Positions 5,313-24,395 of a DNA stretch of 64,000 nt are shown here, piece after piece (within the stretch, counting starts at the first letter, position 1; every line of letters starts with the position of its first letter). The notes under the pieces are model-generated. The model saw only the letters and a program-made list of their open reading frames with translations, had not been told where the DNA came from and searched no databases. Source of the DNA: Clostridiales bacterium (GTDB lineage: Bacteria; Bacillota; Clostridia; Lachnospirales; Lachnospiraceae); contig JAHAJA010000003.1 of the NCBI GenBank assembly GCA_018372435.1, positions 130,585 through 194,584 of the forward strand, written 5' to 3'. Both the position numbers and the translations under genes were made by a program.

Positions 5313-6470
5313 ATGAACAATTTTAAATTTCATGCCCGTACAGATATCCGTTTTGGTAGGGATCAGATTATTAATTTGCCAGGACTATTAACAGCATATG
5401 GTAAGAATGTTTTATTAGTATATGGTGGAGGGAGTATTAAGAAGCTAGGTTTATATGGTCAAATTATAGATTTATTAAAAGGATTTAGTATAGTAGAATT
5501 ACCTGGGGTTGAACCAAATCCGAGAATCACTTCTGTTAGAGAAGGTGTTAGATTATGCAAAGAACATAAGATAGATGTTGTACTAGCAGTGGGTGGAGGA
5601 AGTTGTATTGATGCGGCTAAGGTTATAGCTGGTGGTGCATTCTATGATGGAGATCCTTGGGACTTAGTTGTAGACCCTTCTAAGATCGATGAGGTTTTAC
5701 CAATTGTTACTGTACTTACACTAGCAGCAACAGGTTCTGAGATGAACGGGAATGCAGTAATTAGCAACATGGAAACAAAAGAAAAGTTTGGTACAGGAAG
5801 TCCTAATTTCATACCAATGGCATCTATACTTGACCCTACGTATCTATTTACACTACCTAAGACGCAAACTGCAGCTGGAACAGCAGATATTATGTCGCAT
5901 GTATATGAACAGTATTTTCAAAAAGATGACGAAGCATATCTATCAGATTGTTTATGCGAAAGTATCTTAAAGACTTGTATCAAGTACTGCCCAGTGGCAT
6001 TAGAGAATCCAAAGGATTATGAAGCACGTTCTAATCTTATGTGGGCTTCAACATTAGCCCTTAATGGATTGGTTTGTGCAGGTAAAGGTGGAGCCTGGAC
6101 TTGCCACCCAATTGAGCATGAACTTAGTGCATTCTACGATATTACTCATGGAGTAGGTTTGGCGATTGTTACGCCGAGTTGGATGCGATATATCTTAAGT
6201 GAGAAGACACTTCATAAATTCTGTAACTACGCAAGAAATGTATGGAATTTCGAAGGTGAAGATAGCATGGAATTAGCTACTAAGGGAATTGACGCAACAG
6301 AAAACTTCTTTAAAGAATGTGGTATTCCTATGACGCTTAAGGAAGCTGGAATTGAAGAGAAATCCCTTCATGATATGGCTGTTGCTACGACAAATCACAA
6401 TGATATGGAAAGCTGCTATGTAGGACTTTCTACAGAAGATATTGAAACTATATTAAAGAATTGTTTATAA
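5313..6470 (+). CDS. Iron-containing (group III) alcohol dehydrogenase, butanol dehydrogenase-like
   Basis: Fe-ADH motifs GGGSCIDAAK and ...HPIEHELSAFYDITHGVGLAIV, 385 aa. Confidence 0.85.
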   Translation: MNNFKFHARTDIRFGRDQIINLPGLLTAYGKNVLLVYGGGSIKKLGLYGQIIDLLKGFSIVELPGVEPNPRITSVREGVRLCKEHKIDVVLAVGGGSCIDAAKVIAGGAFYDGDPWDLVVDPSKIDEVLPIVTVLTLAATGSEMNGNAVISNMETKEKFGTGSPNFIPMASILDPTYLFTLPKTQTAAGTADIMSHVYEQYFQKDDEAYLSDCLCESILKTCIKYCPVALENPKDYEARSNLMWASTLALNGLVCAGKGGAWTCHPIEHELSAFYDITHGVGLAIVTPSWMRYILSEKTLHKFCNYARNVWNFEGEDSMELATKGIDATENFFKECGIPMTLKEAGIEEKSLHDMAVATTNHNDMESCYVGLSTEDIETILKNCL

Positions 6471-6545
6471 AGAATTGCTTTAAGCAAATTCTTTATAAAG
6501 AAATTCTCAATAAAAAATATCTATAAAGAAAATTATCAAGTAAGG

Positions 6546-6587
6546 AATTCCCGCGGCTTACCCGTGGAGAATTCCTTACTTGTGTTG
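6546..6587 (+). terminator. Rho-independent terminator after the alcohol dehydrogenase gene
   Basis: 17-bp stem GTAAGGAATTCCCGCGG / CCGTGGAGAATTCCTTAC followed by TTGTGTTG. Confidence 0.6.
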
Positions 6588-6815
6588 AAATCGAATTACA
6601 AGTATCCTATCCAATGGTTTATGTCATATACATCGATAATTTCAATATATTATTACTATAATGATTCGGGCGTCAAAAGCCTTTCGCAAAACTGTTGCGA
6701 GTGAACTACGTTTGGCATAACTTATTTACACATAAATTAGTGCAAATTGGCGAGATGAAAAATAAACTGGCTTATGACACTCGAATCCTATAATGATAAA
6801 AAAAGGAGTAGATTT

Positions 6816-19535: not shown

Positions 19536-19686
19536 TATATTATCTAAGGTAGGGAGTTGTATGATAGAGTATTTGAACATATAGTAAGTTTGGATCGCTA
19601 TCATGCGACTCTTATTTTTTAGATACGTGTGTAGGCAGGTTAAACTAAAGTTAATGATTAATATAGGTAACGAAAGAAGGGTAAAG

Positions 19687-21918: not shown

Positions 21919-22921
21919 CTATAAGAGATAATTTAAGCAAAAGGTAGAGTTATTCATTCGGTTTATCCATGAAGTTGAAGCGTCCATGGCTGCGCGGCAA
22001 CCATTCGTCTGATCCAGTGCATTTAACATAACAAAATCATGAATGATTGCTTGAATCCTCATTTGTGTTACGCCAACGCCAGCTTCTCTTAGGTTCCTTG
22101 CATAGGCTTCTCCCTCATCTCGTAAGACATCAGCTTCACCGTTAAGTATCATAGCATCTGGTAACCCACACAATTGTTCCTTGGTAGCACGAAGTGGTGA
22201 AGCGGTAATTTGATTCCTATCTTCCTCACTCGTGGTATATTGATCCCAAAACCAAATCATACCGTCTCGGTAGAGGTAGTAATCTTCAGCAAACAAACAA
22301 TAGGATTCGGTATCAAAACAAGCATTTGTGACAGGGTAATAGAGAAGCTGTTTGTGAATCTTTGGACCGTTACGATACTTAGCAAGAATTGTCATCACTG
22401 TTGCCATATTACCACCAACACTGTCACCTGCAACAGTTAAGGTAGAGAAGTTAACCTCTAAACGTAATCTACGAAAGATTCGTGGTAAGCTACAAAGTAC
22501 ATGATAACATTGCTCGATAGCAGTAGGATATTTTGCTTCTGGAGACCTAGAATACGCTGGGAAAATCACCACAGAATTCGTTCTTGCGGCTAGCTCATGG
22601 ACGAGCTTTTCATGTGTATGTAGACTACCAAATACCCAACCCGCTCCATGAATATAGTAGATAACATTCGGTGTGCCGACAGTTCGCTGGATATATACAG
22701 TAAACGTTGATTCTACCTAAACTACCAAGATTCATAAGTACTTTCGTCGTTTTTGCTGAATATGTATATACGGGGGTATCTTGTGCTTTCTCTAAAACGA
22801 GACGTCCTTGGTCGGGTGGGAGTTCAAATATAAGTGGTGGTATGGAACTCTGATCACACACTTTCTCAGCAGCAAGTTCTAAGGGTACACATCGCATCAA
22901 TATAAACCTCCTTAATATCAT
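21919..22921 (-). pseudogene. Alpha/beta-hydrolase fold-3 (HSL-family esterase/lipase), frameshifted
   Basis: The oxyanion-hole motif YIHGAGW and nucleophile elbow GDSVGG are present, but the N-terminal ~60 codons (ORF 22625..22921) are in a different frame from the rest. A +1 shift near 22700-22740 is needed to join them. Confidence 0.6.
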
Positions 22922-22976
22922 TTTATGTAAGGGTCAAAATGTAATCTTGGTGTAAAACTCTCTTTACGTTTTCATA

Positions 22977-23208
22977 GATTCTTAACTGACGTACTATGAC
23001 ACGTAACACGCTACACACCTAAGTACTTCTATGTGTGTACGGAATAGTTATGAAAACGATACGGAATCGCCTTCGATACGGCATCCTGCCGTAGCTCAGG
23101 CTGGCTCGGCCTCCATGCCACGCCTTCCTAGATAGCCAAAGTACACACTAAGAAGTACTATAGGTGTTTCGCTATCGTTACTTAGTCATAGTACGTCAGC
23201 TAAGAATC
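22977..23208. repeat. MITE-like element: ~65-bp imperfect terminal inverted repeats flanking a ~100-bp GC-rich core
   Basis: Left arm 22977..23040 (GATTCTTAACTGACGTACTATGAC...GTGTGTAC) is ~80% identical to the reverse complement of right arm 23141..23208. The core 23041..23140 is GC-rich, in contrast to the AT-rich surroundings. Confidence 0.55.
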
Positions 23209-23390
23209 AAAGCTACATTGTTATGAGTTTTGCTTTTCTACTTTATATCTTTTGATCCTCATATCATATAATAGTAGTATATGAGAATATGTTAATAATG
23301 TTAAAATACAAAAGTATTTCATCAAGGGATTACGCTAATCCACTAGAAAGAAGAAAAAAGGTATGCTATACTAAAAAACATATAACAGAA

Positions 23391-24395
23391 ATGAAATTGG
23401 AAGTTGGGAATATTGTGAAGAAGAAAATAGAAGAGTTTTGTAGGTCGCTAGGTCTGGATACCTTTGGCTTTGTACCATGTAGAACTTTTGATGAGCTAAG
23501 AGAATTATATCAAGTAAGACAAGAGAAAAAGCTACAAAATGAATTTGAAGAAAAAGATATCGAAAAGAGGATAAGACCCTCTCATTATATGGAAGATGGG
23601 AAGACAATACTATCAATCGCATTTCCTTATTATCACGAGGGAGAAGATATTAATAATGGTTTTTCCATATATACAAAACGTCCAGATTATCATCGTGTAG
23701 TCATGCAATATATGGATAAAATCTGCGAATTTATTATATCCTTAGGTGGTAAAGCAAAGGGATTTGTGGATAGTAATACATTGCCAGAACGGTATATTGC
23801 CTATCTTGCAGGAGTTGGATTTATTGGAAGAAACAATATGATTATTACGAAGAAGTATGGTTCTTATGTATTCTTAGGTGAGATTATAACAGATCTTAAG
23901 ATCCCCTGTGAGGACAAGCGTACCTTTGACCAGATAAGAGAATATGCGCAGTGTGGCGAATGTATGAATTGCATTAAGGAATGTCCAACCAAATCAATCA
24001 ATAAGCATCAAATCAATCCGAATATTTGCTTATCTTATATAACACAAAAGAAAGAGATATCAAACAAGGAAATATCCTTGTTGGAAGGAAATGTATTTGG
24101 TTGTGATTTTTGCCAGCTACAGTGTCCGTACAATCAAAATGTCACATGCAATGTATTATCTGAGTTCAAGACAGTGGAGTATATGAATGAGGATATCTAT
24201 GTGTATGCAAATATGAATAACCAATATTTCAAAGAAAAGATTGGTAAAACCTCTTGTGGTTGGCGAGGGAAGAATGTTATTAAGCGTAATGCAATTATTG
24301 GAATTAATTTTCAAGATAGAAAGTATGATTTGAATGAATTTCGTGGTGACTCACCATATATTAATGAATATATTGATAGAATACAGGAAAAATAA
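23391..24395 (+). CDS. queG: Epoxyqueuosine reductase QueG
   Basis: C-terminal 4Fe-4S cluster motifs CGECMNCIKECP and CDFCQLQCP plus a QueG-like N-terminus. The start is ambiguous: the ORF is open from 23289, but the homology begins near 23391. Confidence 0.7.
   Translation: MKLEVGNIVKKKIEEFCRSLGLDTFGFVPCRTFDELRELYQVRQEKKLQNEFEEKDIEKRIRPSHYMEDGKTILSIAFPYYHEGEDINNGFSIYTKRPDYHRVVMQYMDKICEFIISLGGKAKGFVDSNTLPERYIAYLAGVGFIGRNNMIITKKYGSYVFLGEIITDLKIPCEDKRTFDQIREYAQCGECMNCIKECPTKSINKHQINPNICLSYITQKKEISNKEISLLEGNVFGCDFCQLQCPYNQNVTCNVLSEFKTVEYMNEDIYVYANMNNQYFKEKIGKTSCGWRGKNVIKRNAIIGINFQDRKYDLNEFRGDSPYINEYIDRIQEK

What the first reader, a model, noticed from the sequence alone, without database searches (positions are those of the whole stretch)
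22977..23208. 232-bp element with 65-bp imperfect inverted-repeat arms and a GC-rich core in the esterase/queG divergent region
Left arm 22977..23040 and the reverse complement of right arm 23141..23208 align at ~80% identity over ~65 nt (GATTCTTA[A/G]CTGACGTACTATGAC...CACCTA.AGTACTTCT.AGTGTGTAC). They enclose a 100-bp core with far higher GC than the surrounding AT-rich DNA, including a direct CGATACGG duplication. This is MITE-like in size and TIR organisation, but with unusually long arms. It could instead be a long-hairpin sRNA. It sits immediately upstream of a frameshifted esterase pseudogene, which suggests local instability.
Basis: seen in the sequence. Interest (0 to 1): 0.55.

Follow-up and report, generated by a model that had tools for sequence, protein, structure and literature searches.

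The report
TwoAYGGAY hairpin element, a mobile repeat
The inverted repeat is real: it is the long closing stem of TwoAYGGAY, an RNA motif catalogued since 2010 with no known function, and here it forms the body of a 339-bp non-coding, transposon-like element that sits, flanked by a 7-bp duplication, in the leader of an esterase gene.

Summary
The arms, the GC-rich core and the CGATACGG duplication are all present, and the fold is about 10-11 sd more stable than shuffled sequence. The element matches Rfam RF01731 (TwoAYGGAY RNA) on the minus strand at 23174..23008, with 94.6 bits against a gathering score of 43. The "unusually long arms" are that family's documented long P1 stem.

The unit is larger than reported: 22922-23260 (339 bp), flanked by an exact 7-bp direct repeat, ATATCAT. 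Two sister lineages with the same esterase/queG synteny lack exactly this segment and carry the 7-mer once. They hold related copies at another intergenic site that is empty in the window.

Eleven related copies were found at other loci, including at least four in one Anaerosporobacter MAG and one in A. mobilis. One has a perfect 7-bp duplication and 17/18 terminal inverted repeats. The copies are intergenic, lie in either orientation and have no transposase beside them. 31 of 92 stem pairs show compensatory changes.

Best reading: a MITE-like non-autonomous mobile element built around the TwoAYGGAY motif, inserted between the esterase promoter and ribosome-binding site. The esterase frameshift is an unrelated strain polymorphism. 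The role of the two conserved GGA hairpin loops is still unknown.

The parts
22922..23260 (-). Whole inserted element, 339 bp, non-coding. In RNA orientation it runs 5'-GAGGATCAAAAG...TTTTGACCCTTACATAAA-3'.
   Evidence: This segment plus one 7-mer is absent from the syntenic sites of L006 and L010. Its outer parts are shared with copies L034a and L032 at unrelated loci. No ORF of 40 aa or more lies inside it.
22915..22921 (.). Left copy of the 7-bp direct repeat ATATCAT (target-site duplication).
   Evidence: Read from the sequence. The empty sites carry it once, as ATAGCAT in L006 and CTATCAT in L010.
23261..23267 (.). Right copy of the 7-bp direct repeat ATATCAT.
22953..23233 (-). Conserved body shared by all full-length copies, closed by the outermost stem GCAAAACTC / GAGTTTTAC.
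   Evidence: A profile built from 9 copies hits the window only here.
23008..23174 (-). Match to Rfam RF01731, TwoAYGGAY RNA, over the full model (positions 1-168).
   Evidence: 94.6 bits against a gathering score of 43, E = 2.7e-15. It is the only Rfam hit in the 64-kb window.
22977..23040 (-).
23141..23208 (-).
23108..23119 (-). Tip of hairpin P3, GGC-AUGGAG-GCC: the first GGA loop.
   Evidence: cmscan alignment. GGCAUGGA is invariant in 8 of 9 copies.
23080..23090 (-). Tip of hairpin P4, GGCA-GGA-UGCC: the second GGA loop.
23276..23304 (-). Promoter-like site TTAACA-17-TATACT of the esterase gene, immediately upstream of the insertion.
   Evidence: Consensus scan, not above chance on its own. 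The block is conserved next to the ribosome-binding site at the empty sites of L006 and L010.
21919..22897 (-). Esterase gene (Abhydrolase_3) downstream of the element on the same strand. RBS at 22913..22907, start codon at 22897, and a frameshifting 2-bp deletion near 22681.

Best explanation
The feature is a copy of a MITE-like, non-autonomous mobile element of about 340 bp. Its conserved body is the TwoAYGGAY RNA motif (Rfam RF01731). That body is a very long imperfect hairpin (outer stem, extended P1, P2) capped by two short hairpins, each presenting GGA at its tip. In this lineage, an uncultured relative of Anaerosporobacter (order Lachnospirales), one copy lies between the promoter and the ribosome-binding site of an Abhydrolase_3 esterase gene. 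The insertion duplicated 7 bp of target (ATATCAT).

Shown: family membership; presence/absence at this site; a 7-bp direct repeat at two independent copies; dispersed, diverged copies in related genomes; and compensatory maintenance of the stems.

Inferred: (1) mobilisation in trans by a transposase that makes 7-bp staggered cuts, probably of the DDE type, encoded elsewhere and not identified; (2) co-transcription of the element in its Rfam (sense) orientation from the esterase promoter, which would lengthen the 5' UTR from about 30 nt to about 370 nt and add a hairpin of about -120 kcal/mol; (3) retention of the conserved GGA hairpins because they are needed for propagation or for an RNA- or protein-binding role. 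That role is not established.
For: Family membership. Rfam gives 94.6 bits over the full model. Related copies score 50-109 bits. The original description notes a P1 that is 'often very large'.

Insertion and duplication. L006 and L010 have the same gene order, ADP-ribosylglycohydrolase / esterase(-) / queG(+). Their intergenic regions read ...TTAATAGCAT|ATAATAGTAG... and ...CTATCAT|ATAGTAG..., whereas the window has ATATCAT-[339 bp]-ATATCAT.

Independent copy. L034a, on an unrelated 259-kb contig, has the termini GATTCAAAGGTCAAAAGG / CCTTTTGTCCTTGAATC flanked by a perfect TAGTTAA repeat. Copies L034b (6/7) and L032 (5/7) have imperfect 7-mers.

Dispersal. Eleven copies lie at other loci. There are at least 4 in Anaerosporobacter sp. 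EPI_MAG_00087, 2 on one contig of ERZ781272 and 1 in A. mobilis DSM 15930. L010 has a copy and L006 a core-deleted derivative at a second intergenic site where the window has only 67 bp.

Signs of repeat-element decay. One copy carries a nested foreign insert, another sits inside a different palindrome, and two have internal deletions.

Context. All copies are intergenic, in either orientation, next to unrelated housekeeping genes, and none has an adjacent transposase.

Structure. 91% of cells are paired and 31 of 92 pairs have changes on both sides. None of 500 shuffles reaches these values, and the slid controls are far lower.

Wider family. Weinberg's alignment shows at least five copies with shared flanks in Psychromonas ingrahamii. 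It also shows many human-gut contigs whose inverted-repeat flanks extend well beyond the motif, including two copies on one contig.
Against: No autonomous partner or transposase with matching termini was found. The very termini are poorly conserved between copies, and in the window the outer inverted repeat is only marginal (p about 0.035). That is atypical for a transposase-bound MITE, in which the ends are usually the best-conserved part. Only one copy lies in the 64-kb window, and independent assemblies read straight through it, so copy number in this genome may be low. The three sister lineages are about equidistant, so parsimony alone cannot exclude precise loss at the 7-bp repeat in the relatives. 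Compensatory change in a DNA palindrome can also arise without any RNA function. Transcription was not measured.
Confidence: 0.75

Rival explanations
1. The element is chiefly a trans-acting small RNA gene of the Csr/Rsm type. Its two hairpin-displayed GGA motifs would bind a CsrA dimer and titrate it (the proposal of Gardner and Eldai, 2015). On this reading, mobility is secondary or absent.
For: [quoted passage not shown] Both loops keep GGA in every full-length copy: GGCAUGGANGCC in 8 of 9 copies (GGCAAGGACGCC in L062b) and GGCAGGAKGCC. The two GGA motifs are about 25 nt apart, which from general knowledge of CsrA suits a dimer. G-U cells outnumber A-C cells 33 to 12 on the Rfam strand.
Against: No terminator-like site was found, and the only promoter-like site belongs to the esterase gene. 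Copies lie sense or antisense to their neighbours, roughly 7 to 4. Derivatives that lack one or both hairpins persist (L042a, L006b). There are only two GGA sites, against many in CsrB and RsmZ. The MFE strand preference is mixed, 6 of 9 against 3 of 9. No csrA lies in the window or the fetched loci, although this is uninformative about the whole genome. The element is absent from sister species at this locus.
Confidence: 0.15
2. The element is a cis-regulatory 5' leader of the esterase mRNA, such as a riboswitch or a protein-binding leader.
For: It lies on the esterase strand, between the predicted promoter and the RBS. Rfam's type field reads 'Cis-reg'.
Against: Orthologous esterase genes in L006 and L010 have no such leader. 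Other copies precede unrelated genes or lie antisense, for example between the thrS T-box and thrS in A. mobilis. Weinberg et al. scored the motif as not cis-regulatory.
Confidence: 0.04
3. The element was ancestral at this site and was lost from L006 and L010 by microhomology-mediated deletion between the two 7-bp repeats. On this reading it is a static, decaying palindromic repeat, not an insertion.
For: The three lineages are about equidistant, so the polarity of the indel is not fixed by parsimony. Deletion between short direct repeats would leave the same junction.
Against: An unrelated copy (L034a) has its own perfect 7-bp flanking repeat of different sequence. L006 and L010 carry copies at a different site that is empty in the window. 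The pre-existing 7-bp repeats would have to sit exactly at the ends of a unit that is also found elsewhere.
Confidence: 0.08

Closest known systems
TwoAYGGAY RNA motif (Rfam RF01731; Weinberg et al. 2010, PMC2864571)
   Same: The full-length covariance-model match is more than twice the gathering score. The architecture is the same: a long P1, P2, and two hairpins with GGA-containing loops. Tandem G-A mismatches in P4 are kept in the sister copies. The taxon is Clostridia. It is not tied to a particular downstream gene.
   Different: P1 is extended by about 31 bp per side beyond the model, with a further outer stem (GCAAAACTC/GAGTTTTAC). The loops read AUGGAG and AGGAU, not AYGGAY. This Anaerosporobacter-type subfamily was not found in the stored part of the original alignment. 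The terminal inverted repeats, the 7-bp duplication and the empty sites shown here are not part of the published description as far as I could search.
Bacterial MITEs and structured intergenic repeats, such as Correia elements (Neisseria), RUP (S. pneumoniae), bcr1 (B. cereus group) and ERIC (enterobacteria). This comparison rests on my own knowledge, not on anything tested here.
   Same: It is small and non-coding, with inverted-repeat architecture, a target-site duplication, dispersed intergenic copies in either orientation, nested insertions and deletion derivatives. It is co-transcribed with neighbouring genes as a stable hairpin.
   Different: It is longer than most (about 340 bp), and nearly the whole element forms one hairpin. 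The interior, not the termini, is the best-conserved part. No parent IS was identified. The duplication is 7 bp, not the TA or TTTAT typical of some of these families.
CsrB/RsmZ-type CsrA-sequestering sRNAs (Rfam clan CL00106)
   Same: GGA motifs are displayed in hairpin loops, and the loop context CAUGGAUG in sister copies resembles the CsrA SELEX consensus.
   Different: There are only two sites. It has no promoter or terminator of its own. It is multi-copy and positionally variable. No binding data exist, and csrA could not be checked in this genome.

Membership tests
TwoAYGGAY RNA (RF01731) | Covariance-model score at or above the curated gathering score (43 bits). | tested here: met
   94.6 bits, model positions 1-168 of 168, minus strand 23174..23008.
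TwoAYGGAY RNA (RF01731) | Two terminal loops, each containing AYGGAY. | tested here: inconclusive
   The window loops read AUGGAG and (C)AGGAU. The GGA core is kept but the Y positions deviate. Sister copies have AUGGAU or AUGGAC in loop 1 and AGGAU in loop 2.
TwoAYGGAY RNA (RF01731) | A closing P1 stem, often very long. | tested here: met
   P1 and its extension span 22977-23040 and 23141-23208. In helix 3 (the outer part of this stem), 18 of 24 pairs show changes on both sides across copies.
TwoAYGGAY RNA (RF01731) | Tandem G-A mismatches within a hairpin stem. | tested here: met
   P4 UGAG/CGAA is kept in the window. The second tandem G-A is replaced by Watson-Crick pairs in the window (UACG/CGUA) and retained in most sister copies. 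L062a and L062b convert the first tandem to Watson-Crick pairs. The feature itself is reported in PMC4333381.
MITE (non-autonomous DNA transposon) | Small size with no coding capacity. | tested here: met
   339 bp, with no ORF of 40 aa or more inside.
MITE (non-autonomous DNA transposon) | Target-site duplication of constant length. | tested here: met
   Window: ATATCAT twice, verified against two empty sites. L034a: TAGTTAA twice, perfect. L034b matches 6 of 7 and L032 5 of 7. Only four copies could be scored.
MITE (non-autonomous DNA transposon) | Terminal inverted repeats. | tested here: inconclusive
   Clear in L034a (17 of 18). Weak at the extreme ends in the window (p about 0.035). The termini differ between subgroups of copies. 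The bulk of the element is one long inverted repeat.
MITE (non-autonomous DNA transposon) | Multiple dispersed copies within a genome. | tested here: met
   At least 4 copies on two contigs of one Anaerosporobacter MAG and 2 on one ERZ781272 contig. For the window's own genome only 64 kb could be searched, giving 1 copy.
MITE (non-autonomous DNA transposon) | Presence/absence polymorphism at orthologous sites. | tested here: met
   The esterase/queG site is occupied in the window and empty in L006 and L010. The nucleoside-hydrolase/ADP-ribosylglycohydrolase site is occupied in L006 and L010 and empty in the window.
MITE (non-autonomous DNA transposon) | A cognate autonomous IS or transposase sharing the termini. 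| not testable with these tools
   No transposase lies next to any copy. One PDDEXK_2 gene sits beside L062b, but there is none near the other copies. No IS database was available.
CsrB/RsmZ-type CsrA sponge (clan CL00106) | An independent transcription unit with its own promoter and terminator. | tested here: not met
   No terminator-like site in 22700-23500. The only minus-strand promoter-like sites are those of the esterase gene. These are consensus scans only.
CsrB/RsmZ-type CsrA sponge (clan CL00106) | CsrA encoded in the genome and binding the RNA. | not testable with these tools
   No csrA in the window or the fetched loci.
cis-regulatory mRNA leader | Conserved position upstream of homologous genes. 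| tested here: not met
   Orthologous esterase genes in L006 and L010 lack it. Other copies flank unrelated genes in both orientations.

The most novel reading that the evidence does not exclude
TwoAYGGAY as a whole is not a conventional sRNA gene. It would be the conserved cargo of a family of non-autonomous mobile elements found in Clostridia, in human-gut bacteria and in gamma-proteobacteria. Because the cargo is a two-GGA hairpin module of the kind bound by CsrA, each sense-strand insertion into a 5' UTR, such as the one ahead of this esterase, would install a portable post-transcriptional control or decoy site. Transposition would then rewire a global RNA-binding-protein regulon.
Probability: 0.12. 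Interest if true: 0.75.

Novelty: new member of a known kind. Interest (0 to 1): 0.4.

Why it matters
TwoAYGGAY has sat in Rfam since 2010 as a well-supported structure with no known function. The only published idea is that it sequesters CsrA. This locus and its relatives give a concrete account of how the motif is distributed: it travels as a transposon-like unit of about 340 bp with a 7-bp duplication, it is gained and lost between sister species, and it decays as other intergenic repeats do. That changes how such hits should be annotated, as a repeat element rather than an sRNA gene or 'Cis-reg' feature. It also cautions against reading stem covariation in palindromic repeats as proof of RNA function. 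Finally, it narrows the open question to why two GGA hairpins stay so conserved inside a mobile element. For this genome the practical consequence is small: one insertion in the leader of an esterase gene that is already a pseudogene in this strain.

Tried and rejected
1. The exact 24-mer arm scan of genome contigs found nothing, so the species representative either lacks the element or is absent from that collection.
2. blastn in 'distant' mode with the element against plasmids and against phages gave no match.
3. A subfamily two-loop pattern in viral contigs gave one hit (L012), a chance match inside a GC-rich coding region. The 18-mer core pattern gave 0 hits in viral contigs.
4. About 35 of the 41 genome-contig hits to the 18-mer were chance matches in unrelated phyla. 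Only L042, L047 and L062 contained the element.
5. Using MFE asymmetry to decide the strand was inconclusive: 6 of 9 copies favour the Rfam strand and 3 of 9 the opposite.
6. Composite transposon idea: paired copies in L062 and L034 flank only housekeeping genes, so I rejected it.
7. PDDEXK_2 'transposase' as the mobilising enzyme: it lies next to one copy only, so I treated it as coincidence.
8. A search for csrA in the window and the loci found none, which is uninformative.
9. I could not define a clean empty site for the L006/L010 copies against the window at the second site, because the junctions are too diverged.
10. L011 has different sequence upstream of the same junction, with no Rfam match. 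It remains unexplained.
11. The look-up of encoding contigs with two guessed queG start codons failed. A neighbouring gene worked.

Full report
**1. The observation**

The repeat finder reports arm pairs 22977-23000/23185-23208 (24 nt, 96% complementary) and 23022-23040/23141-23159 (19 nt, 89%). It also reports the direct repeat CGATACGG at 23057 and 23074. A gapped alignment of the whole arms is about 80% identical. GC reaches 0.55 in the core, against 0.24-0.33 in the surrounding intergenic DNA. Either strand folds far better than dinucleotide shuffles: -102.9 kcal/mol with z = -10.5 on the + strand and -121.9 kcal/mol with z = -11.5 on the - strand, with 0 of 200 shuffles as stable. The terminal 24-mer occurs only at the two arms in the 64-kb window, with 0 expected by chance.

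**2. What it matches**

A gathering-threshold Rfam scan of the whole window gives a single hit. It is RF01731 (TwoAYGGAY RNA), on the minus strand at 23174..23008, covering the full model at 94.6 bits against a gathering score of 43. Weinberg et al. (2010, PMC2864571) described this motif from human-gut metagenomes, Clostridia and gamma-proteobacteria. They scored it as probably an RNA and not cis-regulatory. They also noted that its closing P1 stem "is often very large (e.g., 24 base pairs...)". The "unusually long arms" are therefore a known property of the family. No function is known. Gardner and Eldai (PMC4333381) proposed that the two GGA loops bind CsrA, and Rfam places the family in clan CL00106. 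In the window, the hairpin extends about 31 bp per side beyond the Rfam model.

**3. True boundaries, and the empty site**

The element lies between a minus-strand Abhydrolase_3 esterase gene and plus-strand queG. Metagenome contigs of the same species (L001, L002, L033) carry the identical element. The closest named relatives by queG are Anaerosporobacter, Cellulosilyticaceae and L. phytofermentans.

Two sister lineages keep the same gene order but have short intergenic regions: L006 (queG 85% identical) and L010 (queG 84% identical). The junctions read as follows:

- L006: ...AAACCTCCTTAATAGCAT|ATAATAGTAGTATATGAG...
- L010: ...CCTCCCACTATCAT|ATAGTAGTATATGA...
- window: ...CCTCCTTAATATCAT[TTTATGTAAGGG ... 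GATCCTC ATATCAT]ATAATAGTAGTATATGAG...

The extra DNA is therefore 346 bp: a 339-bp element (22922-23260) plus a second copy of the 7-mer ATATCAT. The bases next to the repeats do not match, so the repeat is exactly 7 bp.

**4. Other copies**

A scan of metagenome contigs with a 20-mer from the arm found two diverged copies at unrelated loci on two contigs of assembly ERZ781272 (L032, L034). An 18-mer that is invariant in those copies was then scanned against the species-representative genomes. Real hits came from Anaerosporobacter sp. EPI_MAG_00087 (two contigs) and A. mobilis DSM 15930. The remaining hits were chance matches.

blastn and a profile search of all fetched loci give eleven copies besides the window locus:

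| Copy | Source | Note |
|---|---|---|
| L032 | ERZ781272 NODE-152 | diverged copy at an unrelated locus |
| L034a, L034b | ERZ781272 NODE-25 | two copies on one contig |
| L047 | A. mobilis DSM 15930 | between the thrS T-box leader and thrS, antisense |
| L062a, L062b | Anaerosporobacter sp. EPI_MAG_00087 | two copies on one contig |
| L042a, L042b | Anaerosporobacter sp. EPI_MAG_00087 | L042a lacks part of the core; L042b carries a nested insert |
| L010b | sister lineage L010 | 49.7 bits to RF01731 |
| L006b | sister lineage L006 | core-deleted derivative |

L010b and L006b both lie between the nucleoside-hydrolase and ADP-ribosylglycohydrolase genes, where the window has only 67 bp. Rfam independently calls TwoAYGGAY in eight of these copies, at 50-109 bits. 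The window itself has one copy.

L034a has clear termini, GATTCAAAGGTCAAAAGG / CCTTTTGTCCTTGAATC (17 of 18 complementary), flanked by a perfect TAGTTAA duplication. L034b and L032 have imperfect 7-mers, matching 6 of 7 and 5 of 7. L042b carries a nested, TA-flanked palindromic insert of about 190 bp inside hairpin P4. L034b sits in the middle of another palindrome. L042a has lost the segment between the two loops. All copies are intergenic, beside unrelated housekeeping genes. Roughly seven lie sense and four antisense to the neighbouring transcription unit. None has a transposase next to it. A PDDEXK_2 gene beside L062b is a single occurrence.

**5. Structure**

I aligned nine copies trimmed to the conserved body, from GCAAAACT to AGTTTTGC (A4). 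With the Rfam-type structure imposed, 91.2% of cells form standard pairs and 31 of 92 pairs show changes on both sides. None of 500 shuffles reaches these values, and sliding the 3' partner drops pairing to 31-45%. RNAalifold gives a similar result.

Most compensation is in the outer P1. For example, CTGACGTACTATGAC/GTCATAGTACGTCAG in the window corresponds to CTGGTGCTCTCTAAG/CTTAGAGAGCACCAG in L062b. The inner P1, P2 and the two hairpin tips are nearly invariant. P4 alternates between tandem G-A mismatches and Watson-Crick pairs: GCCUGAG/UCGAAGGC, GCCUUCG/CGAAGGC and GACCUCA/UGAGGUC.

The stems are clearly maintained, but the evidence on which strand matters is weak. G-U cells outnumber A-C cells 33 to 12 on the Rfam strand. 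MFE favours the Rfam strand in 6 of 9 copies and the opposite strand in 3 of 9. In a palindromic DNA repeat, arms can also co-evolve without any RNA function. I therefore do not count the covariation as proof of an RNA role.

**6. Mechanism**

Shown:
- The element is a member of the TwoAYGGAY family.
- It is a discrete unit of about 340 bp that is present or absent at orthologous sites.
- It is flanked by 7-bp direct repeats of different sequence at independent copies.
- It is dispersed in several copies in related genomes.

These are the properties of a non-autonomous transposable element (MITE-like).

Inferred:
- It is mobilised in trans by a transposase that makes 7-bp staggered cuts. That enzyme has not been identified.
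- At this locus the insertion lies between the esterase promoter-like block and the RBS/start codon. The promoter-like block is TTAACA-17-TATACT at 23304..23276 and is conserved next to the RBS at the empty sites. The RBS is at 22913..22907 and the start codon at 22897. If the promoter is active, the element is transcribed in the Rfam orientation as a 5' UTR insert of about 340 nt.

The effect on the esterase is unknown.

The esterase frameshift is a 2-bp deletion near 22681. It is shared by the window and L001 and absent from L002, which carries the same element. It is therefore unrelated to the element.

**7. The wider family**

Weinberg's alignment contains at least five Psychromonas ingrahamii copies with shared flanks beyond the motif. 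It also contains human-gut contigs whose inverted-repeat flanks run far outside the Rfam model. One such contig has two copies, and another has a foreign palindrome inserted in one arm. In Pseudomonas-like loci the motif sits at a prophage border next to mutS, about 800 bp from a C4 antisense RNA. Its 3' flank resembles that of the Psychromonas copies. This fits the view that the whole family behaves as a repeat element, but I did not test for duplications or empty sites in those taxa. The Anaerosporobacter-type sequence blocks were not found in the stored part of the original alignment. Full-text searches found no paper linking TwoAYGGAY to mobile elements.

**8. Rival explanations**

- A stand-alone CsrA-titrating sRNA is not excluded as an added property. 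It is disfavoured as the main explanation because the element has no transcription signals of its own, varies in position and orientation, has only two GGA sites, and survives as derivatives that lack the hairpins.
- A dedicated esterase leader is contradicted by the empty sites.
- Ancestral presence followed by precise deletion in the relatives cannot be excluded by parsimony, because the three lineages are about equidistant. It is unlikely given the independent 7-bp duplications and the reciprocal occupancy of the second site.

**9. Verdict**

The element is an instance of an already catalogued RNA motif, and its boundaries and the "instability" inference needed correction. It is a new member, and a new subfamily, of a known kind. 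The modest added value is direct evidence that this orphan motif propagates as a mobile repeat. Interest is moderate, at 0.4.

Noticed in passing
L042 4594-4744 and 4756-4905 (+): Two tandem Clostridiales-1 RNAs (RF01699, 123 and 73 bits) lie in Anaerosporobacter sp. EPI_MAG_00087, about 2.3 kb from two copies of the element.
   Followed up: no
L042, about 1465-1619 (inside copy L042b): A palindromic insert of about 190 bp with termini GGGCGTGTCTGAAAAATG.../...CATTTTTCAAGATATGCCC, flanked by TA, interrupts hairpin P4 of the element. It looks like a second, unrelated MITE nested in the first.
   Followed up: partly
L034, about 6330-6800: Copy L034b sits at the centre of another near-perfect palindrome of about 140 bp (CTAATAGGTTT..GAGGGTATAAAGGTC...GAATACTAGAGAATATTTATTC). 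This is a nested repeat of unknown type.
   Followed up: no
L047 2385-3154 (A. mobilis DSM 15930): The element lies between the thrS T-box leader (RF00230, 101 bits) and the thrS start codon, antisense to the mRNA.
   Followed up: no
window, about 22681 (esterase gene 21919-22897, minus strand): A 2-bp deletion relative to L002 frameshifts the esterase. L001 shares it. It is a strain-level polymorphism. The esterase gene has 40-47% GC, against 30-35% for its neighbours.
   Followed up: partly
L011 1-180: In a queG relative (82% identical), the sequence upstream of the shared promoter block diverges exactly at the junction ...ATCAT|ATAATAGTAG... where the window's element is inserted, and the contig ends 300 bp upstream. 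There is no Rfam match. It could be another insertion at the same spot.
   Followed up: partly
L010 4210-4310: An AT-rich tandem repeat, (AAAGAAAAGTAAATAAAAG)n, lies immediately upstream of queG.
   Followed up: no
L013, L014, L017, L021, L031 (Pseudomonas-like viral-contig loci); for example L014 2832-2951 and 3723-3809: TwoAYGGAY (55-59 bits) lies next to mutS at a prophage border, about 800 bp from a C4 antisense RNA (RF01695). Its 3' flank...AAAAGTGAGCCGCCGTCAGGGCGGAA, resembles the flank of the Psychromonas copies in Weinberg's alignment.
   Followed up: partly
L062 497-1315 (-): A PDDEXK_2 'PD-(D/E)XK nuclease family transposase' gene (196.6 bits) lies directly beside copy L062b. No homologue lies near any other copy or in the window.
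   Followed up: yes
window 19536-19602 compared with L006 1121-1455 and L010 248-767: The intergenic site between the nucleoside-hydrolase and ADP-ribosylglycohydrolase genes holds a TwoAYGGAY element in L010 and a core-deleted derivative in L006, but only 67 bp in the window. The junctions are too diverged to define a duplication.
   Followed up: partly
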